Positions 27,442 to 43,766 are shown, counted from the stretch's first letter. The stretch: 64,000 nucleotides of DNA from Naegleria gruberi (GCA_000004985.1 GG738901.1); one strand, 5' to 3'. The notes: a model not told the origin generated them from the sequence alone. Numbers and translations are program-made.

Positions 27442-30396
27442 TTAATGAAGAGAAAAACCTTGTGAACCATATCGAATAGCTTTTCCAAATCTTTCTTTCA
27501 TAATTTCCTTTGATTCATATGGTGGAATATCAATTCTATTGAGACATGTGTGAGCAACAGGTAAATGATCAGTCGACACATTTCTTAATAAACATAAAGT
27601 GAATGGAGGTGTCAATCCTTCAAATCCATCACTTGGTAAACATGATGTTCCTGTTGAAAATTGTAAAAGTTGAGCAATTTGTGTTTGCGAATATCCTTCA
27701 ATCATTTCCCAGAAATATTGAACTGTTGGATGATCTGTATCAAATCCTCCTTCATATGAAATATTGTCCTTCCATTGGGAAATTGAAACTTCCCTACTAC
27801 CACACAATAAAAGTTCCAATTCAGTCTCGCTAAATATAGTTAAAAATTCTGGAGGTAACACTTCGTAAATTCCTTCAAGCATTTTTTCGACTTGTGGTCG
27901 AACTGATTCTACCAGTTTCCATTTGGAATATGCCTCAACAAATTCATGTTTGTTTCCATCATTTACTTCAATTTCTGCTCCATTAAAACAAAGTTCGTAA
28001 ACATTATTCTCACCAAAATCATTCAAATCGGCAGTGAAAGTCATTTCCATAATATTTTCAATATCCTCCAAGAGGAGAAGCTTTTTCAAGGAGAGGTACA
28101 TGGTTGGATCGACGGCTTCCAAATCTTCAAACATGACAGGTTTTCCAGCCATAAGTTTGAAAATTACTTTTGTGAAATGAGTATCCATAATCTTGTTATC
28201 AGAAATTGCTTTACCTATCAACTTGCCAATGAATTGGAAATATTGTAAGTGATCTCCATTGACAGCTGAAGCAGGATTTGGATGGTAGGTGTTATTAGGA
28301 CCTGTTTTGATGAAAAGTGCATTATTTGGATTGAGAATTTGTTGGGAAAGTAAATGATAAAATTCTCTTGTTACTCCACCAACATCAAATCCTTCTTCAC
28401 CAGCAAAATATACAAACATTGGCCTCAATAAATCGGCACCTTTGAGGACTGAGAAGTTTTTACAAGCATCAAATACCAATTGGTCTCTTCTGACCATTAC
28501 AACAGTTGGTTGTAATAATCCATCACCTTTGAGAGCTTTCAGCTTTTTGTAGAATAAGTCTTTTCTCGTTTCGTAATCCATCTCACGTTCATCGTCTGTA
28601 TAAATACATGAAAATGATTCTACAGCTCCAATTGGAGTCATTGATAAGGTGGAAATGGCCTTCAGTCTCTCTTCAATAGTTTGGACAGTATTTGGAACAA
28701 TGGAGAGTTCAAAATAGATATTTCTATCTGACAGATCTTGATTGTCTTTCACAAGTCTGACTTCATTATTCTTTGTAATGTAGTAAATATCCTCGATAAT
28801 ATCCACATCAGAGCCAAGACTTTCATCATCTTGTTGCTGTTTGAGATATTTAATTGTTTTTTCTATTTGATCGTCCAGAGTTTTGCACTCGTCCAAGTAC
28901 TTGTGTTTTTGAAGATCTTCAATTACCTCAGCAACTTTAGTCACTGGATAGAAAAGGATATCAACCAAGTAATTGAATAATTCTTCATAGTTCATGTAGG
29001 CAGGACGTGAAGCTCCATTTTTCAAGTTCAATGAGAAAACAGAACTAATATCAATAAATTTGACAAACATTCCCGAGGAGAAGTATAGTTTCTTTGTCTT
29101 TGCATCTACTGAAAGATTAGAAGCATCCAATATAGTTTCCTGAGGAATTGTATGAACAAGAGTTATTTCATAAGTATCATAAAATTCAAATTGTCTCTTA
29201 TCCTTATTCCAGCCAACAATATATGAAGAATCTTCATCTATTTCAAATATACAAAATTGAGTTATTCCAACTATTGGTGGATTAACCTTATTAGTTTCAG
29301 TATTGTAAGAATAAATATTTTGTGGTTGACTAATGTAAATATTTGAACCAACTTTGTAAAAGTAGTGTGAATACTCCCGACAACTATGAACTTTGATACA
29401 TTCGAGAGATGAAATATCCCACATTCTCACTGTACAATCAGCACCTGAAGTATAGAGTATACCTTCAGAATGTTCATAAAACATATCTTCTACTTTTTTA
29501 ACGTGTCCATTGAGTTTAGCAATTTTCTTTCCCGTTTTCAATTCATATACTGATATCGAGCTGTCATATCCAGAACAAAACAGGTAATCACTACTAACAG
29601 CCAAACATGTTATCCAATTTTCATTGGAATCAAATACTTGTTTACATGTTTGAGTTTCAATATCCCAAACACGAACAGTTCTATCATATGAACCAGAATA
29701 TAATAAATTATTTTTCATATCAATCTTTAGGCAAGTGACAGCTTTCGTGTGTCCTTGGAACAATTTTATGCATTCTCCTGTTTCCTTGTCCCAGCAACAA
29801 ATGTTTTTATCCAAAGAACTTGTCCATATGCGATTATTTTCAACCTTGATGCATGTAATTTTATAGAAATGTTTAAATTTCTTATAATCTTTCAATGATC
29901 TAGGTATCAATGGTTCTGTTCTTTTTTCCTTCCTCACAAAGGATCCAATAGAAGTCAATTGATATTCCTCATCCTCCAATGAATCATTACTAGTATCCTG
30001 CTGTACATTATCGAATGAAGTTCTCATCGTCGACGACTCTGATGACTGTGTTTTAGTACTATCCGATAAATTACTAGTGAATGCTCGCAGTGTTGCTGAT
30101 GTGGTTGGTGTGAGTGTTGTTGGTTTGAAGAGTTTTAGAAGAAAATTCTTCTTTTGTCTCACTTCGGGTGATGATCCCTCCATCATTTCTGCAAAATCAT
30201 TAAAAACTTGAATGTCTAATAGATTCAAGTAATTGTTTGATGATCAAAGATGATGATCATCATTAACAATGATATAAAATCACAAATATTCAACAACCAC
30301 CATAATTGACAAGTTGATATTATTATTGTTGTGATGGGATATGTGTTATTACTTACCATCGCCAGTTTCATTTCTACCACTTGGTGATTGTCCCAT
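27442..30396 (-). CDS. WD40-repeat plus HECT-domain E3 ubiquitin ligase with a short 5' exon. Exons are 30357..30396 and 27442..30215 on the minus strand.
   Basis: The HECT domain has LHTCFNRLDLPPY-type catalytic Cys context (LPVAHTCLNRIDIPPY) and the upstream block GGVTREFYHLLSQQILNP. The N-terminal half has WD40 units (WDKETG, VRVWDIETQ, VRMWDISS). The main ORF has no ATG; the track started it at TTG. A 40-nt exon encodes MGQSPSGRNETGD and ends at a GTAAGT donor. It joins through a 141-nt intron (30216..30356) to the acceptor ctattag, in phase 1, giving ...ETGDDIQVFNDF. Confidence 0.75.
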
Positions 30397-30867
30397 CCTT
30401 CTTCAATCAAACACATACAGTGTAATATCTGTGTTATTGTTATTGTCTATTACTGATAAAGATTGTGTTCACCACCACTTGACGTTTTAAAAATCCCGAA
30501 TGGTCCAGGAAGCTGCTGAGAGAATGAAAACAGTTGTCTGTTTTTTTTGAAAATAGGTTTAATGTGCTGCATTTTCCGTTGCTAATGTTAATGCAGCTTT
30601 TTTATCTCTTGATCGAATTGGATGGATTGAGGCTTTTGGAAAATTGTTTCTGAAGGTTTTGGAAATGAAGTTTGTTATCTCAAAATTGATGACTGACTTA
30701 ATTGGAAGGATTGAGTGTAAAGAAATTCTCAATTTGAAATCAAGATTGGCTTGAGAGTACTCTAAAGAAGAATGATCATAATAATGTACATTGGCAGTGA
30801 ATGCTGGAATGTTTTACAAAATCAAATTAAACGGTTTAGAACTCTGGACGACTTTCCAAATTAGCAA

Positions 30868-31094
30868 TTAACTGCATTTAGCATTTGCAATAGTGATTGA
30901 GGGATATCCCTTGGTTGAATAATATTGAGCAAGATCTTGTTTACAACAACTGTGATAATATTCTAACTGATCACCAACCAATTGTAGAGTTCTTTCGATG
31001 AGATAGGTTTCTCTGAATTTGCAGGTAATTAAAGTATCAAACAATGTCAATATAATGGAGAATCAAACTCTTACACAGTTGTTACTGATACCAT
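30868..31094 (-). CDS. Possible small Cys-containing protein of about 55 aa with two exons. This call is speculative.
   Basis: Minus-strand ORF 30868..31050. The exons 31075..31094 and 30868..31012 are phase-compatible across a 62-nt GTAAGA...ttcag intron. Together they encode MVSVTTVETYLIERTLQLVGDQLEYYHSCCKQDLAQYYSTKGYPSITIANAKCS. No family was recognised. Confidence 0.25.
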
Positions 31095-31289
31095 AGACTT
31101 CAAAACAACATTTTTGATTGAGTAAGTGCATGGGTAAGGTTTATAAACCAACAAGACACGTTTGAAATGCTGAGACACGTTTCTTCACTTAAGTTATTAA
31201 ACAACACGTGTTTGGGATTTTGTGTTCCTTTTATTAATTATGATAAAAATAAAAATAGACAATTACCAAATTTCCAATACACAAAAAAA

Positions 31290-32180
31290 ATGTCATCAAA
31301 AGTTTTACTCATCACCTTTATTGCCTTGATTTTTAGCATCACTCTATCAACACAACAGGGTTCCAATATCGGAAATGATGCCATTCACTTAACACAGATA
31401 AAATCGATAACACTTTACAAGAATGCATGGACAACAGCGAGAAGATCTCATCCAGTCCCACAATTAAAATGTATTAGCAAACCAGATAATTACGAACCTG
31501 ATCAGGTTGAATGTAGTTATGAAGGTAATGGATGGAGGTGTAATGCCAAATTGCGATCAAATTATAAATTTGGTAAAATGAATGTTAATTGTGAAGGTTA
31601 CAGATATTCGGGTGATGATCTTGTATTGAAGGGAAGTTGTGGATTAGAATATACATTGGAGTATAATCAAAAACCACAGTCAAATCAACAACAACAACAC
31701 TACAGACATGAACCTATTCCTTCAAATCCTAGCTCTCTAGGATCCTTTTGGATTGTAATAATTGTACTGGTTGTTATTGGCTGTATTTGGTTGTCCAAAC
31801 AAAATTCATCATCAACAATTCAAAGTAATAATCAACAACCTTATCCTTCCATGTATCCAGATGTAAACCCAAATTATAATCCAGATCTTCACCAAACATT
31901 CGTTCCTTCCAGTTCCTCATCCCAAACCTCATCCACTATTCCTACTTTTTTAGCAGGTGCAGCAGCCGGTTATGCAGCTTCATCTCTTTATAATTCACAA
32001 AGAAATAGTGGTGCTACTGGAGGAAATGGATCATATTTTGAGAGTTCTTCTAATGACAGAAATTATGGAAATCATTATTCAAATTATGAAAATCAAACCT
32101 ATCACTCATACTCTCACCACGATGATGATGATGATACACGAGATCATACAGTTTATGGAATTTCTACAACTTCCAGGTAA
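31290..32180 (+). CDS. SARAF/TMEM66-like single-pass membrane protein with a signal peptide.
   Basis: From ATG 31290 the signal peptide is MSSKVLLITFIALIFSITLS. The lumenal domain ITLYKNAWTTARRSHPVPQLKCISKPDNY...GWRCNAKLRSNYKFGKMNVNCEGYRYSGDDLVLKGSCGLEYTLEY matches the SARAF domain pattern (LTLYRGRYTTARR..PIPQLKC...KFGKT.VSCEGY...YVLRGSCGLEY). The TM segment is FWIVIIVLVVIGCIWL, followed by an S/N/Y-rich tail. Confidence 0.7.
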   Translation: MSSKVLLITFIALIFSITLSTQQGSNIGNDAIHLTQIKSITLYKNAWTTARRSHPVPQLKCISKPDNYEPDQVECSYEGNGWRCNAKLRSNYKFGKMNVNCEGYRYSGDDLVLKGSCGLEYTLEYNQKPQSNQQQQHYRHEPIPSNPSSLGSFWIVIIVLVVIGCIWLSKQNSSSTIQSNNQQPYPSMYPDVNPNYNPDLHQTFVPSSSSSQTSSTIPTFLAGAAAGYAASSLYNSQRNSGATGGNGSYFESSSNDRNYGNHYSNYENQTYHSYSHHDDDDDTRDHTVYGISTTSR

Positions 32181-32372
32181 AGATTTTCATTTAGCATGAT
32201 TATTCTTCTCAATTGTCAATAAATCCACTTTGTAAATTCAAGAAAAAAATTTAAAAGTTTATTAATCGTATGAACCCGACGGGTTCGTCTTGATGATATT
32301 ACGAATATTAAATAATAAATTCTTTCTTGTTGGGATTGCTTTGTTCATTTCTTGTAACTCTGTGGACACAAA

Positions 32373-32501
32373 TACTTGGCTTGAACACCCTATGCTGGAA
32401 CCCCGGGTAGTATAGGGTACGGTGACCCGACGTAAGTATTGCGGCAACACACTGTGGTCTCAGGGTCAACAGTGTAGTTACTGAGTGGTATGACATTTTT
32501 T
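32373..32501 (+). ncRNA. Candidate small structured RNA ending in a T8 run, as a Pol III terminator would. Its class is unknown.
   Basis: A ~125-nt segment sits in an otherwise AT-rich spacer and is locally GC-richer. It has two nested hairpins: ccctat/ataggg closes a loop containing CCCCGGG, and acactg/cagtgt closes tggtctcagggtcaa. It ends ...gtatgacTTTTTTTT. It does not match the tRNA, U6, 5S or SRP motifs I know. The overlapping minus-strand small ORFs look spurious. Confidence 0.3.
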
Positions 32502-32914
32502 TTGAGACGAAATTCAAGAAAAAAATGTAATTTAGTGAATTGTATTATTATTGAGCTTTTTCTTAATGACAGAATTTCCAAAATAAAGATCATTGCATTT
32601 TCCTACCATTAAGGTTAAGTTTATTTGAATCTCCGGCCACTGGTTATATAGATTTGTGGGTGATGATCTATTCTATTGCGTTGAATAAAGTCAATGACCT
32701 AAAAGGCAGCATTTCTGAGCAACATACCTCATCCTTTGGATGAAGAATATGTTGAGTGAGCTTCTACCCATTGGTTTATCAACGATTGTTTTATTGTTTC
32801 TTTTGGAGAAATATGCGTTTTGAAATCTCTTTGTCATTTCAATTTTGGATTTGATTTTGCAAATTTTTTGATGATCAGTCTTTCGTAAGAGGTGAACTGA
32901 CTGTTCAAGAAAAA

Positions 32915-34632
32915 ATGTCAGCAACACTAACAAACCTCTCACACGATGATCTGTTTAATATTCTCGATTTTATTTATCCCTTCTTTTCAGAATATGTCAA
33001 GGCAGTAGGAGGAAAACAATTCGAAGCTCAACATAAACGAGAATATTTAGCCAAGATAATTTTCGGAATTATGAAAGGAAATAATGAGAGGAAGGATTGG
33101 ATTTTGGATTTTCGTGGTAAACACTCTAAAATTATGGGAATTAAACTTGTTTCCAATTTGAATTATAATGAATACTTTTACAAATCGCTCGACGATTCGA
33201 ATGTTTATGTTCCTGCTTTATATTTGAGAAAGTTTTATGAGGATTTAGTTAAGGAAGTGAAGAATTGGTTACTCATTGCAAAGAATGGTCTTTTCTATGA
33301 AATTTTAATGCAAAGTCACATTCCAATAGTTCAACTTTTTTGGGAAAGTTTATTTCACATTATTTAGAGATACTCCTATTATTATGGGAAGTATGAAGTT
33401 TAAACAATATTACAATTTGGAATTGCCAATGATTCAGGATTATATTTTGGATAATATTATTGTGCATGTGATGAAGGCAGTGGAGGAACCAGTTTGGTTA
33501 TTCGAAACTTTTGTTTTCAATGAAATTTCATCTAAAGATGCCCATAGTTTGGGATTCAAAAGTTATCTACGACATTACCAGTTAGAAGAAGGTGAAAAAC
33601 ACGAATTGTATCAGGATGTTTTGGTGGAAAAGAAAGATTGGACGAGTTTGGCAACTGACAATCATTGGGAAGGTTTCTTGATGTTTCTTTCGGATTGTTT
33701 TAACAGATATCCAACTATTTTAAGTGATTCCAAATATGTAGACTTTATCAATTCTCAATTTGAAAAAGATCTAGGAAGGATTTCAAAATTTACTACTGAG
33801 CTTGCCAAATTCCTTTACCTTGACAGAAATATTCCGATTAATCCTATAATTTCAAACAAGTTGTTTACTCTGTTATCATTCACACCAGTTTTTAAACAAA
33901 TTCTAGAAAAGAAACTGAATGAATTAAGGATAACGACAAGGAAAGAAACTCGTTTCTTGCAAATCTCTTTTTAAGAGATTCACTACTTTCTTCCTCTATT
34001 TTAAATTTACAATTCGAAATAATTGACATGCATTTAGATTATATGGACGAATGTTTGGATAGTAAGGTGATTGATTCACACTTCTCAAAGTGCCCTGTAG
34101 TGACTTATTTCATAGAGGGTGCCCTAATGATGGAAGATTTAAGCGATCCATTGAAAAGTTCCATGATTGTTATTGAGTACATTGAGAAATTTAGGAAATT
34201 ATTCGAAAGGTTCAATAGAAAAAATTTTGGTTATTCAATTTATAGAAATATCATAACATTGTTTTCAAATTTCACCCGCAGTGGTCTTACAGAAGATTCA
34301 TATGAATGGCAGTAACGTTTTATAATCTTTACTGAACTATTCCAAAACCTGGTTTCAAATAAGATTGACGATTTACCCGAAACTGACCTATCTTTTATTT
34401 TCAGATATACCTCCAATGAAAAGATTATCACCTTCCTATTCGAACAACCACCACTATTCCATCAAATGTTAGCAAGATACATTCCAGATAGAATTAATGA
34501 AAATCTTTTGAAAATTATCGAGAAATATGTTGGCAATAACAATTCATATTATCAGAGGAATCAAATTGCAATATCCAATGATGAGAAAAATCTCAATGCT
34601 AAATCTACTACCACTTCTACTTTAAGATTATA
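32915..34632 (+). pseudogene. Reading frame of about 570 codons broken by two +/-1 frameshifts at T-homopolymers and one in-frame TAA. It is probably a pseudogene, but an assembly error is also possible.
   Basis: Four consecutive track ORFs join into one continuous protein under three edits:
- deleting one T from the T6 run at 33336..33341 joins ORF 32915..33367 to ORF 33384..33974
- adding one T to the T5 run at 33968..33972 joins that to ORF 34028..34315
- reading through the TAA at 34316..34318 continues in frame to 34632
No GT-AG intron of plausible length spans any of the three sites. Confidence 0.5.
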
Positions 34633-35446
34633 AGAAACACATTCTCTTCTTAAGAATGTTGTTATAGGGTTGACTGATTAATGTTGTAATTTATACATAA
34701 GTTTGTTGACCATTTCCATTAGTAGGAGGAGTATAATAAGAAGGTTGTGGAGTAACATAGGTTGGTGGTGGTTGATTGACCATCATTGGTTGACCGTATT
34801 GTGGTTGATAAGGTTGTTGAGTCATCATTGGTTGACCATATGGTTGTTGTGGTGGATATGGTTGACCATAAGGTTGTTGTTGAGGTGGATAATAAACACC
34901 AGGTCCTGGATTTTGAATAACAACTGTAGTGACAGGTGGCATTGTTGGTTGAGCAGTGACAAGAGTAGAAGGCATTGTTGCTACTCCAATGGCAGCTGCT
35001 GCTTGTTGTTCTTGAGCTCTTCTCATCATCATAAGTCTTCTCTTTCTGGAAGCAGCACTAACAATAATGATAATTGCAATAAATATTATGAAACCTGGAA
35101 TTCCAAATCCTAAACCATATCCTAAAGCATCATAATCTCCATAACTATTCGAAACACAAACATTGGAAGAACAAGTTTGGGAAGAAGAACAACATGCATA
35201 ACTAGAAGCAATACATGTTGAATAACCAGATTTTCTACAACAAGTTTGTCCAGATAAGCAATAAACATAATTAGTGGAACCTGTTACTGAGCAACAAATA
35301 CTATCTTGAACAGCTGACACTTGGCTTTCATTGAGAGATGAGAAAGAAAGTTCCCCCTTTAATGAATTATCACCATAAGTTGTCAAACGGGCAGAGATTT
35401 TGGCACCTGACACGAGGAGTAATAACACAACTAGTGAGCTGGCAAT
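34600..35446. repeat. Segmental duplication, copy A. It is paralogous to 38620..39460.
   Basis: About 850 bp of near-identical sequence lies in direct orientation 4.0 kb apart. It covers the 3' UTR and CDS of the membrane-protein gene. Identity stops exactly at the position of copy B's start codon. Confidence 0.8.
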
Positions 35447-35899
35447 TTGGACCCATATTCTAATTTGCTCTTTGATTTGAGTTCTTTTCAAAGTTGGAGC
35501 ACTCTTTTTGATGAAACTAATTACTTTTGGAAGAAGGTTGTTGTTGGTTGGATCTGGCTTTGAAGATGAAGGATGAAGTGCTTCGTTTTGATGAATATCG
35601 CACCTTGCTTGGTGGTGATGAATTACCTTCAACTTTACATTACAAAATTCATTGCATTGACATGAAATATAGTAGTAAAGTTGAGGAGTTCCTACTTCAC
35701 ACTTATTGAATTCCTTTCTTTCTGAGTAAATGTCTTTCAATTCATAAATCATATTGTCCTTCATAACTGCTCGGCATAAAGAAGCTTGCTCAGTCACTTC
35801 ATGAACAGAGTGCACCTTCCATGGACGTTGTAAGTGGTTACAAATTCTATCGAACACATCTTGGTGCTCAATATTTGAGAGTAGTGGAGTATAACTCAT
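34691..35899 (-). CDS. Membrane-protein gene, copy A of a duplicated pair. It has a Cys-rich ectodomain, one TM segment and a GYPPQQ-like Q/P/Y-rich tail. Its 5' end is a chimeric fusion to a non-homologous upstream ORF.
   Basis: The 3' 750 nt are about 97% identical to copy B (38702..39487). Where B has its start codon and signal peptide, A reads ...KEQIRIWVQIASSLVVLLLLVSG. This is in frame with 150 upstream codons, MSYTPLLSNIEHQDVFDRICNHLQRPWK..., that have no counterpart in B. Confidence 0.55.
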   Translation of the reverse strand: MSYTPLLSNIEHQDVFDRICNHLQRPWKVHSVHEVTEQASLCRAVMKDNMIYELKDIYSERKEFNKCEVGTPQLYYYISCQCNEFCNVKLKVIHHHQARCDIHQNEALHPSSSKPDPTNNNLLPKVISFIKKSAPTLKRTQIKEQIRIWVQIASSLVVLLLLVSGAKISARLTTYGDNSLKGELSFSSLNESQVSAVQDSICCSVTGSTNYVYCLSGQTCCRKSGYSTCIASSYACCSSSQTCSSNVCVSNSYGDYDALGYGLGFGIPGFIIFIAIIIIVSAASRKRRLMMMRRAQEQQAAAAIGVATMPSTLVTAQPTMPPVTTVVIQNPGPGVYYPPQQQPYGQPYPPQQPYGQPMMTQQPYQPQYGQPMMVNQPPPTYVTPQPSYYTPPTNGNGQQTYV

Positions 35900-36799
35900 T
35901 CTATTTTTTTTGCTTGTTGTTGATGAATTGTTCCTTATTGTTGTTTTGTGGTTCTATTGCAAGATATATGTGTTGGTGTGTTGTGTGGTGTTTGTTGTAT
36001 CGTTAAGAATTTTTTTGATTGGTTGAACAATTGGCGCCATGTTTAATTTCCGTGTTTTGCCTTTTAGGAACAATAAAATTTGCTGTTTAAGAACAAAAAA
36101 TTGCAAATTAAGATGGATTTCTAAATTGTTCACAAATATGTACTTTACTGTGCTGGATGTAATGGAAAATAATGCTACTCAAATTAAGATATTAGACTTC
36201 CTTAAAAGTCAAAAAGACTAAGACACAAATTACAGTTTCAAGCGAGGAGCAGGGGTAGAAATCTTACTTTTAATTTAGGGTTCATCAAAAAATTGCGAAA
36301 TAATTGGGGTAAACAACATTATTTATTTATTTATTTCTTCTTTCGTGCTCTACTAGAGTTTCTCTTTACTGCTTCTTCAAATTGTGAATTCTTTGGTCCA
36401 CGTTTTTGTTTCTATAGCGGTTCTTCTTGTTCCAATTCCTTCTCTTGTTAAGGCTATGGAATTATCGTTGCTGAGAAAGTCTTCTTCACTTTTTCTTTGT
36501 TATGATGGGGTGAAGTACAAAATAATTGTATCGTGCTGGTTGTTGTGGATTAATCTTCCTTTCTATTTACAAAAGTGTATAACCAATTACCATCTCTACT
36601 AAGGTAATATATCCTTTAGTAATTTCTTGATGGAAATAGCTCTTGGCATTCATGAAGCGAAGGTAAGGTGTTTTATTGTAGGTGCAGTGGAAACATTTGG
36701 GAGTGCCTGCTTTTGTTTTGGTAGAGGATTTGGTTCCTTGAGGTTTTTTTAAATATTTACAACAAAGAACACAGCAGAAGAGGTTTTCGAAAAGATAAG

Positions 36800-36945
36800 A
36801 ACAGATTCGTGACAACAACTTACAACAGTTGGATGGAAAACGATGCATTCGGTCAACTCTGGGAGAAAGACTCACTGAATTATCTGAGATTATTGTGTGC
36901 CTCCTTTAGGTCTGATCCCCCAAGCTCTTTTCCATCTAATCGAGA
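36800..36945. repeat. Diverged ~150-bp repeat unit, copy 1, with a partner at 37545..37690.
   Basis: caacagttggatggaaaacgatgcattcggtcaactctgggagaaagactcactgaattatctgagattattgtgtgcctcctttaggtctgatcccccaagctct matches caactcttggttagaaaacgatgcggttcaagaactttgggaacaaaactcaatcaattattgtgttcctccaataggtctgataccacaagctct at about 70% identity. The two copies are ~745 bp apart between the duplicated genes. Confidence 0.5.
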
Positions 36946-37544
36946 GCGAACGGAACTTTTGAAGTGCTGTAGTGGCCAACTTCTCATTGGTTCTCAATAC
37001 TATTAAGGATTTCCTTAAAAGTGAGAAAGGTTCCAAGAATGCTTAGTGTGGATCCATACACCGAATTGTTCAACAAATTCGAAGTTTATGGAGCTTTCCA
37101 ATGGTTCGTAGTGATTCACAATATTCCAAGATCCAATCCTCATACAATAGAATACTTTGCAACTTACCTTTCAGAAAGGGTATGTTTTAAACAATTTGAA
37201 GCCAGCTCTTCAATCTTTTGTAGACGTTGAAGGTTGGAAACTTAATGTTCCCAATGGTTTTGCTAGACTAAAGAAAGGACTTTCATAAGGGTTACTACAT
37301 TGTTGATAGAAAGAAACTAAAAAATAAATGGAGTTTCAGCTTATGATATTAAGAATTATATTGATTCCGTGGCTTCCCATAATGAATTCACAGAATGTGG
37401 CAGGAGAATTGCAAAAGTATTTTTCATTCCATCAGAGAAAAATTCAATTGCATACAAACTTTGCTAAGCCTTTTAAGCGATTGGAAATCATCACCAGAAT
37501 TGATAAGTATGGTAGAAAAAGAATGCGGAAACCACACCATCGAC

Positions 37545-37690
37545 AGATTTGCAACATCAGAGTAGGCAACGACAATCCAATTCAACTCTTGGTTAGAAAA
37601 CGATGCGGTTCAAGAACTTTGGGAACAAAACTCAATCAATTATTGTGTTCCTCCAATAGGTCTGATACCACAAGCTCTATTTCACTTGAT
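37545..37690. repeat. Diverged ~150-bp repeat unit, copy 2.
   Basis: See the copy-1 entry. No intact ORF or domain is associated with it. Confidence 0.5.
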
Positions 37691-38160
37691 CCCATCAAAG
37701 GATATAGCAACATTCGTAGTTCCTTTTTGGCTAACAGCTTACTGATCTTGCTAAAGATATCTTTTGAACAGAGAAGTGTTCCGCTCCAATGGCTTATAAC
37801 AGAGCATTACAACGAACTGCACAAACTATCAGGCAATCTTTAGTTCATGGCAGTCAAAGTGAATGGAATGCTCTCCTTTCAATGAGATTTCAGGCTTTAT
37901 CTACTGCTCTTGCAGAATCCACAGTCAAAAAGTATTCTTTAACTTATTCAGAATTTTCTTATTTCTGTCTACTCCATTATTTTAAAACATTCAGAAATTA
38001 GAGCCCCACCCTCTTGCAGTTCACAAAAAGCTCTACAGGTTGAATAATTTGAAACCTACGTTAGATTTCTATTCAAATTTGGAAGGATGGATCCGTAAAT
38101 TATTCCAATCAATTCTAGAATTCAAACAAGGTTTGAATAAGTTTTATTCACGAGCTGATA

Positions 38161-38427
38161 TTGACACTTGATACTCCTTTTATCAGTTGGGTTTCTTTTG
38201 ATCTTTCTGGTCACAAAACAGACCAAAATTTGACAGATGAAGAAACTCCTATTGAGGAAATAAGAAATACTGTCCAGTTTATAACCTTAGAAGATACATG
38301 GATTATGCCAGATCGTGAGATGAAAATTTTAAGGATTTGGCAATTATTGAATAAAGACTTGATGTTATTTGAAAAGATTTCAAAGTTGGCTCAATCTTCA
38401 GCTAATTATCAAAAGATTGATGTTTGA
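38161..38427 (+). pseudogene. Diverged fragment paralogous to the 3' end of the broken + strand gene (34330..34630).
   Basis: ORF of 88 aa. ...NTVQFITLEDTWIMPDREMKILRIWQLLNKDLMLFEKISKLAQSSANYQKIDV parallels copy-A ...EKIITFLFEQPPLFHQMLARYIPDRINENLLKIIEKYVGNNNSYYQRNQIAIS. Nucleotide similarity continues into the shared 3' flank (aaaaatgtcaatgct...ctttaagattataag). Confidence 0.35.
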
Positions 38428-38619
38428 TTTCTTGTGTTGTTTCAAAATAAAGAACTTTAAAACACAAAAAAGTTGTTTTGAGACAGCTGGTAATTGGGTG
38501 CCTAATTCAAAAGTGAGATTGAGATATCAACGTAGAATTGGCCTTGCTACTCATGGTTTAACTACTTCTATTATGAGAACTGATTAATTGTATATATAAA
38601 TAGAAAAATGTCAATGCTG

Positions 38620-39460
38620 CTACTAGTTCAACTTTAAGATTATAAGAAACCGTTTCTCTTCTTAAGAATGTTGTTATCGGGTTGACTGATTAATGTTTAA
38701 TTTATACATAAGTTTGTTGACCATTTCCATTGGTAGGAGGAGTATAATAAGAAGGTTGTGGAGTAACATAGGTTGGTGGTGGTTGATTGGCCATCATTGG
38801 TTGACCGTATTGTGGTTGATAAGGTTGTTGAGTCATCATTGGTTGACCATATGGTTGTTGTGGTGGATATTGTTGACCATAAGGTTGTTGTTGAGGTGGA
38901 TAATAAACACCAGGTCCAGGATTTTGAATAACAACTGTAGTACCACCACTGACAGGTGGCATTGTTGGTTGAGCAGTGACAAGAGTAGAAGGCATTGTTG
39001 CTACTCCAACGGCAGCTGCTGCTTGTTGTTCTTGAGCTCTTCTCATCATCATAAGTCTTCTCTTTCTAGAAGCAGCACTAACAATAATGATAATTGCAAT
39101 AAATATTATGAAACCTGGAATTCCAAATCCTAAACCATATCCTAAAGCATCATAATCTCCATAACTATTCGAAACGCAAACATTGGAAGAACAAGTTTGT
39201 GAAGAGGAACAACATGCATAACTAGAAGCAATACATGTTGAATAACCAGATTTTCTACAACAAGTTTGTCCAGATAAGCAATAAACATAATTAGTGGAAC
39301 CTGTCACTGAGCAACAAATACTATCTTGAACAGCTGACACTTGGCTTTCATTGAGAGATGAGAAAGAAAGTTCCCCCTTTAATGAATTATCATCATAAGT
39401 TGTCAAACGGGCAGAGATTTTGGCACCTGACACGAGGAGTAATAACACAACTAGTGAGCT
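38620..39460. repeat. Segmental duplication, copy B.
   Basis: See the copy-A repeat entry. Confidence 0.8.
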
Positions 39461-39487
39461 GGTAATTAGGACGAGAATTGATTTCAT
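38702..39487 (-). CDS. Membrane-protein gene, copy B. It has a signal peptide, a Cys-rich ectodomain, one TM segment and a GYPPQQ-like Q/P/Y-rich cytoplasmic tail with a PPxY motif.
   Basis: The start is ATG 39487..39485, encoding MKSILVLITSSLVVLLLLVSGAKISA. The ectodomain has about 20 Cys (CCSVTGSTNYVYCLSGQTCCRKSGYSTCIASSYACCSSSQTCSSNVCVSN). The TM segment is GFGIPGFIIFIAIIIIVSAA, followed by an RKRRLMMMRR stop-transfer. The tail reads VYYPPQQQPYGQQYPPQQPYGQPMM...PPPTYVTPQPSYYTPP. Compared with copy A it carries a 12-nt SGGT-coding insertion. Confidence 0.7.
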   Translation of the reverse strand: MKSILVLITSSLVVLLLLVSGAKISARLTTYDDNSLKGELSFSSLNESQVSAVQDSICCSVTGSTNYVYCLSGQTCCRKSGYSTCIASSYACCSSSQTCSSNVCVSNSYGDYDALGYGLGFGIPGFIIFIAIIIIVSAASRKRRLMMMRRAQEQQAAAAVGVATMPSTLVTAQPTMPPVSGGTTVVIQNPGPGVYYPPQQQPYGQQYPPQQPYGQPMMTQQPYQPQYGQPMMANQPPPTYVTPQPSYYTPPTNGNGQQTYV

Positions 39488-40323
39488 TTTTTTTAATGGG
39501 GAAAAGTAAGAAGGAATTTATTTTGTTGATATTTACAACATAATGTTGATGAACCTGAGAGCTGCCTTTCAACAACATTCGAATAGCACTATGGTGGAAT
39601 AGAGATAGGAAGGTGAGGTGTCAATGTCAGCAGTATCTTTTGTTTGGTACTTTTTTAGACCCCAAGATTCGTTTAGGCTACGATACTTGCCAAAAATTAT
39701 GTTGTATTACGTTTTCTCAAGCCTGTTTGTGTTTCACAAAAAATAATTAGCGATTAATTTGAAAACTATATTTGTATTGATGTGTTTTGAATTCGTCCAA
39801 AAAGTAGTGAGGTGTTGTGACATTAATTTCTACTTGTTGTTGCATAGAATTGTTTTTCAGTGTAGTTTTACACTCTAACTCTATCGATTCAATCAATTGA
39901 TTGATCTACATACAACAGTGAAAGATTTTGACAATTCCTTACGATTATCTCTAAAATAATTATTGAACCAAAAACTTGTTTTATTGTTCTGGTATTAAAA
40001 ATTGAACAAATGCTCAATACTATTGCTCAATTTCTTAGTCTTTTTTTGAATGTCTTGTGATATTCAGGGTGAGAGGATCTGTGACAGGGCTTTTTTATGA
40101 TGACCAAACACTGTTAAGTTGACAAGCAAACATCTTTAGTAAACTATTTTTAACAGATATTCAGTTCTCAAAACCATAACATTTAAACTTTTTCAATTTT
40201 TACGAATTCAATAAGGAAAACAAATTCGAATAGAATTTCAATTCGTTCTAAAAATCTTTGTCATTAAGTTCACTATTCACATGTCCAGCACCATGAACTT
40301 GATTCCAAAAATCATTAAAAAAA

Positions 40324-41808
40324 ATGCTTAAAATCAGTTCTACTACTGCCTTCACGACTCGCTCACCAACAATCAAACAACAATTGCAAAAACAAATCTT
40401 TTCCGATGATATTTGCTTTGAAATTTTATCATTTCTTGATTTTAAATTTATTCTAACGAATTGTTGTTTAATTTCTCATCAGTGGGAGAATGTCATCAAT
40501 GTACAATCTAATTTATCAGTCATTTTCAATAATCAAAAAGTGACGAATGAATTTATTGATAAATTAATGAAAAATAGTTATTTGAAACGTTTCGTTTCGT
40601 TGAAAACTAGAGAAAGAAGCTTTTTGCATGATCGAGAAAAAGTTTTGAAACTTGTTGGAATGATGCAGAATTTGAAATCACTCTCCATTGTTGGTAATGG
40701 ATTAGTGGATGAACATTTGAAAGAAATTAGTGAAATGAAAGGTTTAACTTTACTCGATGTGAGTGAGAATAAGTTTGGAAAGGAAGGTGCGGAAAAAATT
40801 AGTGGAATGGTTGGATTGACCACATTGAATATTAATGATAATTATATACTTGATGAAGGGGCTAAATTCATTGGAACGATGAAACAATTGACCTTGTTGA
40901 AAATGAAATATTGTGAAATTAGAGAAGAAGGTGCGAGAGCAATAAGTGAATTGAAAAATTTAACATTTCTCAATCTGCATGGTAATTTTATAGGTGATAA
41001 AGGAGCCAGCTATATAAGTGAAATGGTCAATCTGACACATCTCAATGTTGGTAGCACCCAATTGACAGCTGAAGGGGCAAGACATGTTAGTGGACTCAAA
41101 AATCTGAAATCTCTATTGATTCATACCAATCAAATTGGACATCAAGGAGCAAAGTGGATTAGTACAATGAAAGATCTGGAAGGGTTGACTTCACTTGATG
41201 TTAGTGGAAACTCCATTCTTGATCAAGGAGTACAATATTTGAGTGAAATGTCAAATCTGACACATTTAGATATTGGAAGTAATCATGTTGGAGTTAAAGG
41301 AATTGAATCAATTATTGGAATGAAAGGATTAATCTCGCTAAATGTCAGTAGTAATGATTTGGGATCATCAGGAGCAAAGTTAATCAGTGGAATGTCAAAT
41401 TTAACCTCACTAAACATTTCAGCCAATCGACTATTAGGTGAAGGAGCTAAATTTATTGGAGAAATGCATAACGTAACAATATTAGTTATCAGAAACAATG
41501 ATATTGGTGATGAAGGAGCCAAATTCATTTGTAAAATGAAACAATTGAAATCTCTCAATGCTGTGTATAATAGAATATCTTCGAAAGGATTTGAATCAAT
41601 AAGTGAAATGAAACAATTAACATCACTTGATATTGGTTACAACAGTATTGACTCAAAAGGAGCTAAATCTGTTCGCAAATTGAAAAATTTGACTTCTCTC
41701 AATGTCAGAAGTAATATGATAGATGATGAAGGATTGAAAGCTATTGGTCAACTCAAAATTCCTTATCTAACCACTGGATATCAACAAGCAAAACAATCCA
41801 ATAATTAA
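40324..41808 (+). CDS. F-box plus leucine-rich-repeat protein with ribonuclease-inhibitor-like LRRs.
   Basis: ORF of 494 aa. The N-terminal motif is F-box-like (IFSDDICFEILSFLDFKFILTNCCLISHQWENVIN). It is followed by about 14 units of about 28 aa built on LxxLxxLxLxxNxIGxxGAxxIxxM. Confidence 0.75.
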   Translation: MLKISSTTAFTTRSPTIKQQLQKQIFSDDICFEILSFLDFKFILTNCCLISHQWENVINVQSNLSVIFNNQKVTNEFIDKLMKNSYLKRFVSLKTRERSFLHDREKVLKLVGMMQNLKSLSIVGNGLVDEHLKEISEMKGLTLLDVSENKFGKEGAEKISGMVGLTTLNINDNYILDEGAKFIGTMKQLTLLKMKYCEIREEGARAISELKNLTFLNLHGNFIGDKGASYISEMVNLTHLNVGSTQLTAEGARHVSGLKNLKSLLIHTNQIGHQGAKWISTMKDLEGLTSLDVSGNSILDQGVQYLSEMSNLTHLDIGSNHVGVKGIESIIGMKGLISLNVSSNDLGSSGAKLISGMSNLTSLNISANRLLGEGAKFIGEMHNVTILVIRNNDIGDEGAKFICKMKQLKSLNAVYNRISSKGFESISEMKQLTSLDIGYNSIDSKGAKSVRKLKNLTSLNVRSNMIDDEGLKAIGQLKIPYLTTGYQQAKQSNN

Positions 41809-41893
41809 CTAAAATGTATGAATGCGAATAAACTTGGGCTTTCACATGTTGTTGTTATCAATTAGAAACCAAGAAAAATGTTTAAAAATATTT

Positions 41894-41964
41894 CTCCCCC
41901 TGGTGGGTTGAATATCGACCTGCAGATTAACAGTCTGACGCTCTACCGACTGAGCTAAGGGGGA
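41894..41964 (-). tRNA. tRNA-Asn(GUU)-like gene with an aberrant, shortened T-arm. It may be a pseudogene.
   Basis: The minus strand reads TCCCCCT-TA-GCTC-AGTCGGTA-GAGC-G-TCAGA-CTGTTAA-TCTGC-AGGTC-GATATTCAACCCACC-AGGGGGA-G. The acceptor stem is perfect over 7 bp. The D-arm is canonical (A-box TAGCTCAGTCGGTAGAGC). The anticodon loop is CTGTTAA. The T-arm region is only 15 nt, has no GGTTCGANTCC B-box and forms no 5-bp stem. Confidence 0.45.
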
Positions 41965-42514
41965 TACATTCAGCAATAAAAAATATTTATAATATTCGAT
42001 GGAAAAAACTGTTTCTTTCCATTTTTGGAATTAACAGCCAAAGAGGTAAATATAATCAATTCGGTTTATCAATTAATAAAACAAAAAATCTGATTTCCTT
42101 CATTGCATTGTAATCATTGCCCTTCTCAGACCAATCAAAATTTGTCCAACCCATGCACAAACTCCTTGAGTATTACAACTTTCGAATAATATGACTGAAT
42201 TTCTTAGCTCATTCCCAAAATCTCATTCACCTCTTATTCATCAAAAACACATCCACAATCCATACAATAACCAAAACTCACTCATCAATATCTTCAAGTT
42301 CATTCCTTTAATCTTCTATCTGTCTTCCATTATCTAAAACCAATTACACCTTCTAATTTTCATCATCTATGTAACCCAACAAGAAGTAAACTAATCACCT
42401 TGGGTAATCAAATTGCTGGGGGAACCTGTCAAATTCTGAGTCAACTAAACTTCATTTGAACCTTTTAGAGGTTGCAGTAAATCGGTTTTTCATTGCAATT
42501 CGAAACAAAAAAAA

Positions 42515-43119
42515 ATGAGAGAAAGTGGCGTAGTAAGTATTTGCATCTTGTGAAAACAATCTCACAAACTGTCTTTCTCATTACCCAAATGGTTTCTAAT
42601 ATACTTTCGAATAATAACAATATCGTTTTGTGATGATCATTATTAATAGGCTTATCTTCTTTGGTTAGGTTGTTGTATTGGATTCTTCGGTTTGCACCGT
42701 TTCTATTTGGACTCTGTCATTTTGGGTGTCATCTGGTTCTGTACTGCTGGTTTGTTCGGCTTTGGTCAATTGATTGATCTTAGTAAGTAATCTTATTTCT
42801 AATATATGATGATTTAACCATTATCTATTACTCACACTAACACACATTCCAACTTTCTCTGTTACGAAAATCAACTTTCGAATAACAATTTAATTCTAAA
42901 GTCCTCATCCCAGGTATGGTCGATGAATGTAACCGTAAATATGGTACTCCACAAGTTACCACTGCTGTTACCAACGTAACAACTTATCAAACTCAACCAC
43001 AAGTCCAACAACCATACGTCCCACCACAACAAGCATATTATCCACCACAACAAGGTTATGTTCCTCCACAACAAGGATATGCTCAACAACCTGCTGTTAA
43101 TGTTTATGTTCAACAATAA
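42515..43119 (+). CDS. TM2-domain protein with a GYPPQQ-like C-terminal tail. Exons are 42515..42532, 42650..42782 and 42914..43119.
   Basis: Exon 2 encodes [44 protein letters not shown], which is the TM2-domain signature (GxHRFYLG...G..Q.....G). Exon 3 encodes ...[27 protein letters not shown]. The introns at 42533..42649 and 42783..42913 have GTAAGT donors and phases 0/1 consistent with ORF 42916. The 6-codon first exon MRESGV is tentative. Confidence 0.6.
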
Positions 43120-43249
43120 ATATTATTAAATAATTTTAATTATGATGATGAAATATTGTTTTGTTTCGAATAGTGCTAAAGAAGACTAATGGATTGTGAA
43201 GAAAAGTTAAGAAGGGTGATGATGGATCCATCAGAATATACAATAAAAA

Positions 43250-43570
43250 ATGATGTTAAGAAGGAGAGCAGAAGATGAGTTGCAACTCTCAGCAACCATC
43301 ATCAAGGTTGAAAATCTCCAAACAGATCCCAAGTAAGTTTATTGCTTTATTCGAAAGTTGCCAACAACCCACATCAACAGCTCTGTCTATGCCATCCTAA
43401 CTTTCAATCAGGTCCAAAAGAAAGTTTCAACAGCCGACAAAAACCTCGAAGGAAAGAATAGTTACGAATGGTCTGACAATAACAATGTGCTCTTCAAGGA
43501 AATTCCAGAATTTTGCAATGAAAGACTCAAAATTGAAGTGAGGGATAAACAATCGGATAAGTTAATGTAA
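43250..43570 (+). CDS. Small C2-like domain protein of about 90 aa. Exons are 43250..43332 and 43381..43570.
   Basis: Exon 1 encodes MMLRRRAEDELQLSATIIKVENLQTDP. A 48-nt intron at 43333..43380 has a GTAAGT donor and acatcaacag acceptor, in phase 2. Exon 2 encodes NSVYAILTFNQVQKKVSTADKNLEGKNSYEW...LKIEVRDKQSDKLM. The pattern L.V.I..A.NL...D...S.Y..L......KT.V.....NP.W.E.F.F.V is C2-like. Confidence 0.4.
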
Positions 43571-43766
43571 GGATTTTATGGATCTCAACTTATCTAATCA
43601 AATTGATTTATTTCATTACTATATTATTAATTGATATGATTTTAATGTCGTGCAATGATCATCATCATCAGGAATTAATTTATTATTTTAATTGATGATG
43701 ATCAAATTTATTTCCGAATGATCGATCAATTGAATGTAATATTAATAATAATAATACTATGTATTG

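What the first reader, a model, noticed from the sequence alone, without database searches (positions are those of the whole stretch)
34600..39500. Tandem segmental duplication of a membrane-protein gene in which one copy is a chimeric fusion
Two ~850-bp blocks, 34600..35446 and 38620..39460, are about 97% identical and lie in direct orientation 4 kb apart. They differ by one 12-nt indel. Each block carries the 3' UTR and CDS of a minus-strand gene. The gene encodes a signal-peptide protein with a Cys-rich ectodomain, one TM segment and a Q/P/Y-rich tail.

Identity ends exactly at the start codon of copy B. At that point copy A has lost its ATG and signal-peptide N-terminus. It reads through in frame into 150 upstream codons with no counterpart in B. 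Copy A is therefore either a gene fusion, a 5'-truncated pseudocopy read from an upstream promoter, or a copy with a new first exon.

The neighbouring + strand gene was only partly co-duplicated. A fragment at 38161..38427 is paralogous to 34330..34630 but far more diverged than the membrane gene, which suggests purifying selection acts only on the latter. This looks like a recently rearranging locus.
Basis: seen in the sequence. Interest (0 to 1): 0.6.

Follow-up and report, generated by a model that had tools for sequence, protein, structure and literature searches.

The report
Young gene duplication making transposon-fused copy
In the Naegleria gruberi reference genome, a small membrane-protein gene was recently duplicated around a 3.1-kb block of dead transposon DNA, so one copy lost its own start and is fused in frame to the front end of a transposase gene; this is an ordinary kind of genome rearrangement, but the fused copy is annotated and the intact copy is not.

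Summary
The duplication is real. Window 34584..35452 and 38602..39472 are direct repeats with 21 substitutions and 3 indels (about 97.5% identity). The window is Naegleria gruberi NEG-M, not a dictyostelid.

Copy B (38702..39487, 261 aa) is the intact gene: signal peptide, 10-Cys ectodomain, one TM segment and a Q/P/Y tail. Copy A lacks the first 5 codons. It reads in frame from 149 upstream codons, giving a 402-aa ORF that is annotated as NAEGRDRAFT_52539. Copy B has no annotated protein.

Those 149 codons match the N-terminus of a metagenomic protein that sits just upstream of a MULE+SWIM transposase ORF. They are therefore probably a truncated Mutator-like transposase 5' end.

The rest of the 3149-nt spacer holds two decayed methyltransferase/tyrosine-recombinase fragments of a DIRS1-like element. 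It is not a copy of the neighbouring gene.

A contig from a related strain (L001) shows the unduplicated arrangement: B's 5' flank, one gene, A's 3' flank. The dS values (A-B 0.040; each copy to L001 0.058) date the event after the strain split.

Verdict: a young, strain-specific tandem duplication with transposon-derived filler, creating a chimeric ORF of unproven function. Interest is modest.

The parts
34584..35452 (-). Repeat block A. It holds the last 50 nt of the convergent + strand gene, the 57-nt intergenic region, and codons 6-261 of the membrane-protein CDS (with a 9-nt in-frame deletion).
   Evidence: Self-blastn, pairwise alignment, three-way alignment with L001.
38602..39472 (-). 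Repeat block B. Same content as block A, but part of the intact gene.
38702..39487 (-). Copy B: the intact ancestral-type gene of 261 aa plus stop. It has a signal-peptide-like segment at residues 1-30, a 10-Cys ectodomain, a TM segment at 114-143, and a Q/P/Y tail with PPTY. No protein for it exists in the public collection, so it appears to be unannotated.
   Evidence: ORF. Hydropathy and PPxY. 97% identical to P0001, whose contig has the same 5' flank. Absent from the collection.
34691..35899 (-). Copy A: the chimeric ORF of 402 aa plus stop, identical to annotated NAEGRDRAFT_52539 (EFC39277.1, XP_002672021.1, D2VVA6).
   Evidence: ORF. Exact match to the NCBI protein.
35453..35899 (-). The 149 N-terminal codons of copy A. 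They are the 5' fragment of a Mutator-like (MULE-type) transposase gene, truncated before the catalytic domain. A conserved C-x-C-x3-C...HHH cluster is present.
   Evidence: HMMER hit to P0004 (E = 5e-7 library-wide; pairwise E = 1e-15). P0004 is followed 24 nt later by an ORF with Pfam MULE (sub-threshold) plus SWIM. A 74% homolog is P0002/L002. Omega against L002 is 0.11.
35453..38601 (.). The 3149-nt spacer at the duplication junction. It is absent from the orthologous site in the related-strain contig L001.
   Evidence: L001 runs without interruption from B's 5' flank through one CDS into A's 3' flank. No other copy of the spacer exists in the window.
36809..37282 (+). DIRS1-like debris, partial copy 1. 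Methyltransferase-like fragment at 36809..37083 and tyrosine-recombinase fragment at 37172..37282, with many stops and frameshifts.
   Evidence: tblastn with P0007 and P0006. Internal tblastx repeats. Three-frame translation.
37509..38250 (+). DIRS1-like debris, partial copy 2. Methyltransferase-like fragment at 37509..37742 and tyrosine-recombinase ORF remnants at 37789..37977, 38013..38162 and 38167..38244, with an internal deletion.
   Evidence: tblastn (95% identity to N. gruberi P0006 residues 1-63). Protein comparison. P0007 gives a weak Pfam Dam methyltransferase hit.
34584..34633 (+). The 3' end (last 16 codons plus stop) of the convergent + strand gene. This is the only part of that gene inside the duplicated block. 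Its copy lies at 38602..38645 and is not preceded by an ORF.
   Evidence: Sequence reading, alignment.

Best explanation
Shown:
- In the lineage of N. gruberi NEG-M, after it split from the strain behind contig L001, an 870-bp segment was duplicated in direct orientation. The segment runs from codon 6 of a small type-I membrane-protein gene to 50 nt inside the convergent downstream gene.
- The duplication junction is filled by 3149 nt that are absent from the orthologous site in L001.
- The distal copy B keeps the ancestral promoter region, ATG and signal peptide. It is the working gene.
- The proximal copy A keeps the ancestral 3' neighbour but has lost the promoter, the ATG and the first 5 codons.
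- Copy A's reading frame continues upstream, by an in-frame junction, into 149 codons. This creates the 402-aa ORF annotated as NAEGRDRAFT_52539.

Inferred:
- The filler was already-decayed transposon DNA copied or moved in as one block. It consists of DIRS1-like methyltransferase/recombinase debris plus the promoter-proximal 149 codons of a Mutator-like transposase gene.
- The likely mechanism is a single complex repair or replication event. Either a template switch occurred (replicate through the gene, copy an ectopic TE-rich stretch, then re-enter behind the starting point), or two staggered sister-chromatid breaks were end-joined with captured filler DNA.
- If transcribed from the transposase promoter, copy A would make a protein with a cytosolic Cys/His-rich transposase N-domain. 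The former signal peptide would become an internal membrane anchor, followed by the Cys-rich loop, the TM segment and the PPxY tail.
- I think copy A is most likely a young, non-essential or dying chimera rather than an established new gene.
For: Duplication and boundaries.

The pre-duplication state survives in a relative. L001 (Logan run ERR1078381) matches window 39703..38602 at 96.3% and 35452..34373 at 95.9% within one 1526-nt contig. That is B's 5' flank, one CDS, then A's 3' flank.

Polarising the differences with L001 gives 9 A-unique and 12 B-unique substitutions. They alternate along the block, so L001 is an outgroup and not an A/B recombinant.

dS is 0.040 between A and B, against 0.058 for A-L001 and for B-L001.

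Spacer content:
- tblastn with N. gruberi P0006 and with P0007 finds two partial, stop-riddled methyltransferase and recombinase fragments.
- The two fragments are only 58-81% identical to each other at protein level. They are therefore far older than the 97.5% gene duplication, which argues that the spacer arrived as a pre-decayed block.
- PMC3266345 reports degenerate DIRS1-like sequences in N. gruberi.

N-terminal 149 codons:
- HMMER hit to P0004, with pairwise E = 1e-15 over residues 7-144.
- P0004 is followed by a 697-aa ORF with a Pfam MULE hit over the full profile (18.3 bits) and a SWIM hit (19.8 bits). That ORF also carries the D..A...A..(F)P....C.FH..KN signature.
- Omega of 0.11 against L002 shows it is a real coding sequence.

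Annotation status.
Against: - No read-level or long-read evidence was available, so neither junction (35452/35453 and 38601/38602) is independently verified.
- The donor locus of the spacer could not be searched, because the N. gruberi genome is not in any searchable DNA collection here. Block transfer and junction microhomology are therefore inferences.
- L001 comes from a short-read de Bruijn assembly and could in principle be a collapsed contig.
- The MULE assignment rests on one metagenomic locus, with a sub-threshold MULE score. Pfam, NCBIfam and PDB give nothing for the N-domain itself, and the AlphaFold model failed (pLDDT 33).
- The A-B omega of 0.26 (binomial p = 0.018), with equal non-synonymous and synonymous counts on both branches, fits constraint on both copies about as well as decay of A. 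With 13 changes it cannot discriminate.
- There are no expression data.
Confidence: 0.68

Rival explanations
1. The two-copy arrangement is ancestral. The single-copy arrangement in L001 arose by unequal recombination (loop-out) between A and B, which deleted the spacer.
For: Recombination between direct repeats would give exactly B's 5' flank, one gene and A's 3' flank, as seen in L001. The three sequences are nearly equidistant.
Against: A recombinant should be B-like on one side of the crossover and A-like on the other. Instead, L001 agrees alternately with A and with B along the whole block. dS between A and B (0.040) is lower than dS of either copy to L001 (0.058). No homolog of the fusion or of the 149 codons was found from that run.
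Confidence: 0.1
2. Assembly artefact. The two blocks are alleles or mis-joined clones in the 2010 Sanger assembly, and the genome really has one copy.
For: The copies differ by about 2.5%. The spacer is repeat-derived DNA, where mis-joins are common. No reads could be examined.
Against: Both junctions are unique sequences that a simple haplotype collapse does not generate. The spacer's right end abuts the downstream gene's tail rather than codon 5, so it cannot be one allele with a simple insertion. Each copy carries its own derived substitutions and indels relative to the outgroup.
Confidence: 0.07
3. Stepwise origin. A plain tandem duplication of a larger unit came first. Transposons then inserted between the copies. 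A later deletion ran from inside the transposase gene to codon 6 of copy A.
For: Transposable elements (TEs) do target each other. The structure duplicate-TE-duplicate is also what alternative transposition of cut-and-paste elements produces (from my own knowledge of maize Ac/Ds work).
Against: It needs at least three events within a dS of about 0.02 per lineage. The DIRS1-like fragments are far more decayed than that time allows. No terminal inverted repeats or target-site duplications were found.
Confidence: 0.12
4. Pack-MULE-like transduplication. A Mutator-like element captured a fragment of the membrane-protein gene, and copy A is the captured fragment inside the element.
For: A transposase 5' fragment directly abuts a 5'-truncated host gene copy in the same orientation.
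Against: Copy A retains the ancestral 3' neighbour, continuous with L001 for 211 nt beyond the repeat, so it sits at the original locus. No terminal inverted repeats flank it. The fusion point lies inside the transposase ORF rather than between the ends of an element.
Confidence: 0.03

Closest known systems
Young chimeric genes made by partial gene duplication that recruits foreign upstream sequence (for example Drosophila jingwei or Sdic; from my own knowledge)
   Same: A 5'-truncated duplicate acquires a new promoter and N-terminal coding exon from unrelated DNA. The parental copy stays intact next door or elsewhere. The arrangement is recent and lineage-specific.
   Different: The recruited part here is a transposase fragment. 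No expression or selection evidence exists. The event is a local tandem duplication with filler DNA, not retroposition.
Host-transposase fusion genes such as SETMAR, and Pack-MULE chimeric ORFs in plants (from my own knowledge)
   Same: The N-terminal, presumably DNA-binding, part of a cut-and-paste transposase is joined in frame to host coding sequence.
   Different: SETMAR keeps the whole transposase and is fixed and expressed. Pack-MULEs carry host fragments between terminal inverted repeats. Here only 149 codons of the transposase remain, no terminal inverted repeats exist, and the host copy stays at its native locus.
Tandem duplications with inserted sequence at the junction, as produced by replication template switching (FoSTeS/MMBIR), by end joining with filler DNA, or by alternative transposition (maize Ac/Ds; from my own knowledge)
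   Same: The structure is segment, foreign insert, segment in direct orientation. One copy keeps the left ancestral flank and the other keeps the right ancestral flank.
   Different: The donor of the insert and any junction microhomology could not be examined, so the mechanism is inferred from anatomy only.
DIRS1-like tyrosine-recombinase retrotransposons (PMC3266345)
   Same: The spacer holds methyltransferase-like and tyrosine-recombinase-like fragments in the same orientation and the expected order. They are related to an N. gruberi predicted protein. That paper lists 7 degenerate DIRS1-like sequences in N. gruberi.
   Different: No reverse-transcriptase or RNase H part and no terminal repeats were seen in the window. 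Both copies are fragments full of stops.

Membership tests
Mutator-like (MULE) transposase gene (N-terminal 149 codons of copy A) | Homology to the N-terminal region of a protein that carries the MULE catalytic domain | tested here: met
   P0004 matches residues 7-137 (E = 5e-7 library-wide; pairwise E = 1e-15). In L003, P0004 is followed after 24 nt by a 697-aa ORF with Pfam MULE (E = 0.003, 18.3 bits, profile positions 3-99 of 99, below the 27.6 cut-off) and SWIM (19.8 bits, cut-off 19.6). The support comes from a single locus, and the MULE score is sub-threshold.
Mutator-like (MULE) transposase gene (N-terminal 149 codons of copy A) | DDE/MULE catalytic domain and SWIM finger present in the element itself | tested here: not met
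   tblastn of the L003 MULE+SWIM ORF against the window finds nothing at E < 1. The window copy stops at the equivalent of P0004 residue ~149, so it is a fragment and not a transposase gene.
Mutator-like (MULE) transposase gene (N-terminal 149 codons of copy A) | Terminal inverted repeats and a 9-11-bp target-site duplication | tested here: not met
   There are no inverted repeats of at least 40 nt in 33000..41000. Only chance-level pairs of 24-38 nt at 71-85% are found in 30000..46000.
Mutator-like (MULE) transposase gene (N-terminal 149 codons of copy A) | Zinc-finger-type DNA-binding fold of the N-domain | tested here: inconclusive
   C80, C82 and C86 are invariant in all three sequences. 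The HHH run is shared by the window copy and P0004 only, because P0002 has lost it through a frameshift. No Pfam hit was obtained. The AlphaFold model is unusable (pLDDT 32.6).
Pack-MULE (captured host fragment inside a Mutator-like element) | Host fragment lies between the element's terminal inverted repeats, at a locus other than the parent gene | tested here: not met
   Copy A keeps the parent gene's own 3' neighbour. No terminal inverted repeats were found.
DIRS1-like retrotransposon (spacer 36809..38250) | Tyrosine-recombinase ORF | tested here: inconclusive
   Strong similarity to N. gruberi predicted protein P0006 (95% over residues 1-63, 78% over 80-129, 85% over 187-212). P0006 itself has no Pfam or NCBIfam hit. 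Its recombinase nature rests on motif reading and on PMC3266345.
DIRS1-like retrotransposon (spacer 36809..38250) | Methyltransferase-like domain next to the recombinase | tested here: inconclusive
   P0007 matches 37509..37742 at 68% and 36809..37083 in pieces. P0007 hits Pfam Dam with E = 8e-4 and 19.6 bits, below the 28.1 cut-off.
DIRS1-like retrotransposon (spacer 36809..38250) | Reverse transcriptase/RNase H, and inverted terminal repeats with an internal complementary region | not tested
   No reverse-transcriptase query was run. Nothing resembling one was seen in the three-frame translation.
Small Cys-rich type-I membrane protein family (copies A and B, P0001, P0003, P0005) | Signal peptide, ten conserved Cys (CC..YVYC..CC..C..Y.CC..C..C), a single TM segment starting YGL.(I/F)G(I/L)P.GF, and a basic juxtamembrane stretch | tested here: met
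   Alignment A2 shows 10 invariant Cys and the conserved start of the TM segment. HMMER E = 5e-8 (P0003) and 2e-5 (P0005). Hydropathy. Copy A lacks the N-terminal Met and the n-region of the signal peptide.
PPxY-motif adaptor or substrate of Nedd4-type HECT ligases | Cytosolic PPxY motif conserved in the family | tested here: not met
   One PPTY is present in A, B and P0001. The tails of P0003 and P0005 have no PPxY. This remains a lead only.

The most novel reading that the evidence does not exclude
NAEGRDRAFT_52539 is not a dying duplicate. On this reading it is an expressed, strain-specific new gene. A transposase-derived Cys/His DNA-binding domain is tethered to the membrane by the former signal peptide of a Cys-rich receptor-like protein. 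That would make it a very young membrane-anchored regulator born from one rearrangement, still polymorphic among N. gruberi strains.
Probability: 0.08. Interest if true: 0.6.

Novelty: new member of a known kind. Interest (0 to 1): 0.3.

Why it matters
This is a clean, datable example of how one rearrangement creates a chimeric open reading frame. It has a surviving empty site in a sister strain and a parental copy next door, and it occurs in a free-living protist where few such cases are documented.

There is also a practical point. The N. gruberi reference annotation carries the chimera as a predicted protein (D2VVA6) but has no model for the intact 261-aa parental gene. Orthology and family analyses that use this proteome therefore inherit a misleading 402-aa architecture.

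The finding also adds a Mutator-like transposase remnant to the sparse transposon inventory of Naegleria, and places DIRS1-like debris in context. None of this changes general understanding.

Tried and rejected
- Non-standard genetic code or tiny ciliate-type introns. I considered these because of in-frame stops in the + strand gene. I rejected them because standard-code ORFs tile the window, and the calpain gene shows an ordinary 40-nt GTAAGT..TAG intron.
- Paralogy of 38161..38427 with 34330..34630. Rejected.
- Exact look-ups of copy B and of the LRR protein. Nothing was on record. The look-ups of P0006 and of copy A in the position index also failed, so the reference annotation around the locus could not be displayed.
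- Pfam on the N-domain, on spacer translations and on the + strand gene pieces. Nothing meaningful.
- NCBIfam and PDB sequence searches on the MULE-like ORF, P0004, P0006 and P0007. Nothing.
- AlphaFold on the N-domain with a 3-sequence alignment. Mean pLDDT was 32.6, so no fold search was attempted.
- Metagenome scan with the N-domain alignment. There were 182 pattern matches, none confirmed.
- Terminal inverted repeats around the spacer and around the 415-nt indel. Only weak, chance-level pairs.
- Literature searches for ERR1078381 and for Mutator elements in Naegleria. Nothing useful.
- Gene conversion as the cause of the lower CDS divergence. It is not needed: synonymous divergence (7 of 179 sites) and 3'-flank divergence (9 of 107) do not differ significantly (Fisher p = 0.12).

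Full report
**1. Observation**

A repeat search and a self-blastn of the window find one strong direct repeat. It lies at 34584..35452 and 38602..39472, with 95.7% identity over 878 columns when gaps are counted, 1414 bits and E = 0. No other copy of either the repeat or the intervening DNA exists in the 64 kb.

A base-by-base alignment and a three-way alignment with an outside sequence give 21 substitutions and three indels:
- a 9-nt in-frame indel in the CDS (AGTGGTGGT, Ser-Gly-Gly, missing in copy A)
- a 1-nt indel in the 3' flank
- a 6-nt indel in the 3' flank

Similarity stops abruptly at 35452/39472. That point is 15 nt inside copy B's CDS, between codons 5 and 6. At the other end it stops at about 34584/38602, which is 50 nt inside the 3' end of the convergent + strand gene.

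ORF B (38702..39487, minus strand) encodes 261 aa. ORF A (34691..35899, minus strand) encodes 402 aa. Its last 253 codons correspond to B's codons 6-261 (less the three codons of the 9-nt deletion), and its first 149 codons have no counterpart in B.

The details are slightly off: the indel is 9 nt rather than 12, and the boundary is 15 nt inside the CDS rather than at the ATG.

**2. Organism**

Six of ten first-ATG ORFs from the window are exact matches to NCBI proteins of Naegleria gruberi strain NEG-M, on a 309,005-bp scaffold. Other features agree with this assignment:
- GC content is 33%.
- The standard genetic code fits.
- A 40-nt GTAAGT...TAG intron splits the calpain gene at about 21577..21616.

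The window is not dictyostelid.

The 402-aa chimeric ORF is itself an annotated protein: NAEGRDRAFT_52539 (EFC39277.1, XP_002672021.1, UniProt D2VVA6). The intact copy B has no entry. The homology search with B returns a single 90% cluster. That cluster has only two members, the 402-aa protein and a Logan-derived protein, P0001.

**3. The membrane protein**

Copy B has the following features:
- a hydrophobic N-terminus at residues 1-30, which is signal-peptide-like
- a second hydrophobic segment at residues 114-143
- ten Cys between the two hydrophobic segments
- a Q/P/Y-rich tail with one PPxY motif (PPTY)

An exhaustive HMMER search found only two distant relatives, P0003 (238 aa) and P0005 (245 aa). 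Both come from metagenome assemblies, at 34-39% identity. They share all ten Cys and the start of the TM segment, but not the PPxY tail. No Pfam family matches. The gene therefore belongs to a small, uncharacterised, lineage-restricted family.

**4. The empty site in a relative**

P0001 is 97% identical to B. It is encoded on a 1526-nt contig, L001, from run ERR1078381. L001 aligns to window 39703..38602, which is B's 5' flank, CDS and 3' region. It also aligns to 35452..34373, which is A's CDS and A's 3' flank, running 211 nt beyond the repeat into the + strand gene. That strain therefore has the arrangement: B's upstream region, one gene, A's downstream neighbour, with nothing corresponding to 35453..38601.

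Using L001 to polarise the differences between A and B gives 9 A-unique substitutions, 12 B-unique substitutions and 18 L001-unique substitutions. Nine of the L001-unique changes sit in one rearranged run of Q/P codons. A-like and B-like states alternate along L001, so L001 is an outgroup and not a recombinant of A and B.

The Nei-Gojobori estimates are:

| Comparison | dS |
|---|---|
| A vs B | 0.040 |
| A vs L001 | 0.058 |
| B vs L001 | 0.058 |

The orthologous flanks differ by 2.7% (5' flank) and 1.4% (3' flank). The duplication is therefore somewhat younger than the split between the two strains.

**5. The 149 upstream codons**

The word-indexed search found one 74%-identical homolog, P0002 (97 aa), on the 623-nt metagenome contig L002. 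The nucleotide alignment starts about 16 nt upstream of the shared ATG. L002 has an 8-nt deletion that truncates its ORF. Between the two sequences dS is saturated (1.4) and dN is 0.15, giving omega of 0.11. The sequence is therefore a genuine protein-coding sequence that has been under constraint.

The exhaustive HMMER search added P0004 (226 aa), which aligns to residues 7-137 (E = 5e-7; pairwise E = 1e-15 over residues 7-144). On its 3.3-kb contig L003, P0004 is followed after 24 nt by a 697-aa ORF. That ORF has:
- a full-length but sub-threshold Pfam MULE match (18.3 bits, E = 0.003)
- a SWIM zinc-finger match at threshold (19.8 bits) in the canonical order
- the sequence D-N-C-D-A-S-A-N-V-L-...-P-H-I-I-C-R-F-H-V-L-K-N, which I recognise from my own knowledge as the MULE/FAR1 signature around the second catalytic Asp

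I conclude, with moderate confidence, that the 149 codons are the N-terminal part of a Mutator-like transposase, cut off before the catalytic core. No catalytic part is found anywhere in the window.

The conserved C-x-C-x3-C cluster and the HHH run shared with P0004 suggest a zinc-binding DNA-binding domain. This could not be verified: Pfam finds nothing, and the AlphaFold model is unusable.

**6. The rest of the spacer**

Three-frame translation of 36000..38640 shows many stops. A protein search with a stop-stripped stretch hit two proteins:
- P0006, an N. gruberi "predicted protein" of 213 aa on another, 499,907-bp scaffold
- P0007, 127 aa

tblastn places the fragments as follows:

| Query | Window positions |
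|---|---|
| P0007-like | 36809..37083 and 37509..37742 |
| P0006-like | 37172..37282, 37789..37977 and 38013..38162 |

It shows no similarity to the + strand gene.

P0007 gives a weak Pfam Dam methyltransferase hit. P0006 reads like the N-terminal part of a tyrosine recombinase; this is motif reading and was not confirmed by any profile. A methyltransferase-like domain next to a tyrosine recombinase is the hallmark of DIRS1-like retrotransposons. PMC3266345 lists seven degenerate DIRS1-like sequences in N. gruberi.

The two partial copies in the spacer are only 58-81% identical to each other at protein level. They are much older than the 97.5%-identical gene duplication.

**7. Mechanism**

The anatomy is: left ancestral flank, copy, foreign insert, copy, right ancestral flank. 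This is the signature of a tandem duplication with inserted sequence at the junction.

The insert is far more decayed than the time since the duplication allows, and it is absent from the sister strain. The simplest account is therefore one complex event that brought in a pre-existing chunk of transposon graveyard, consisting of DIRS1-like debris with a Mutator-like element's 5' end next to it. Two routes could produce this. One is replication template switching. The other is end joining of staggered sister-chromatid breaks with captured filler DNA. This step is inferred. The donor locus could not be searched, because no tool here holds the Naegleria genome as DNA.

I found no terminal inverted repeats or target-site duplications. 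Copy A also retains the native 3' neighbour. A Pack-MULE-type capture is therefore rejected.

**8. Is the chimera functional?**

Nothing here shows that it is.
- The frame match at the junction has a prior of one in three.
- The A lineage has only 6-7 coding substitutions and one in-frame deletion, so an intact ORF is expected by chance.
- A-B omega is 0.26 (13 changes, binomial p = 0.018). The counts are symmetric, with 3 non-synonymous and 3-4 synonymous changes on each branch.
- One A-specific change (Leu to Gln) lies in the former signal-peptide core.

If translated, copy A would carry a 149-aa cytosolic N-domain ahead of what was the signal peptide. That would probably turn the signal peptide into an internal anchor. 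I rate an established new function as unlikely (about 0.1) and a young, neutral or decaying chimera as most likely.

**9. Verdict**

The claim of a co-duplicated, faster-diverging neighbour gene is refuted. The event is an ordinary kind of genome rearrangement, but a nicely documented one. It also has an annotation consequence: the chimera is annotated and the parental gene is not.

Noticed in passing
window 38702..39487 (-): The intact 261-aa membrane-protein gene (copy B) has no protein in the public collection, whereas its chimeric neighbour does (NAEGRDRAFT_52539). This looks like a gap in the N. gruberi NEG-M annotation.
   Followed up: partly
window 39704..40118: A 415-nt stretch upstream of copy B is absent from the related-strain contig L001. 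L001 resumes at 40119..40283 with only 77% identity. Near-terminal inverted repeats are weak (20 nt at 75%), and approximate direct repeats GCTTGTCAAC / GCTTGAGAAAAC lie at the edges. It may be a small insertion or a deletion in the other strain.
   Followed up: partly
window 32915..34633 (+): The convergent neighbour gene appears as four consecutive ORFs (32915..33367, 33384..33974, 34028..34315, 34316..34633), with frame changes and an in-frame TAA at 34313..34315. It is either a gene with several short introns or a pseudogene. It has no Pfam hit. Its tail carries a 6-nt in-frame insertion relative to both copy B's fragment and L001.
   Followed up: no
window 19740..22815 (+): The calpain (Peptidase_C2) gene is split by a 40-nt GTAAGT...TTAG intron at about 21577..21616. 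Splicing restores the LLEK-AYAK motif. It is a useful example of intron size and signals in this genome.
   Followed up: partly
window 42916..43119 (+): A short ORF ends in a Q/P/Y-rich tail ([20 protein letters not shown]) resembling the tail of the duplicated gene. It was detected as an inverted nucleotide match to 34829..34858 and 38840..38869. It may be the last exon of another PY-tailed protein.
   Followed up: no
window 41895..41964 (-) and 46328..46400 (-): There are two tRNA genes. Both ARAGORN and Rfam call tRNA-Lys(TTT) at 46328..46400. The one at 41895..41964 is called only by Rfam (38.3 bits).
   Followed up: no
L003 222..3017: This metagenome contig carries a near-complete Mutator-like transposase gene: an N-domain ORF of 226 aa, then a 697-aa ORF with MULE and SWIM matches, separated by 24 nt (a short intron or a frameshift). 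It probably comes from an uncultured eukaryote, possibly a heterolobosean relative.
   Followed up: partly
window 16870..17034 (-): There is a weak tblastn match (E = 0.05, 25% identity) to residues 162-217 of the MULE-associated protein P0004. It is probably chance but was not examined.
   Followed up: no
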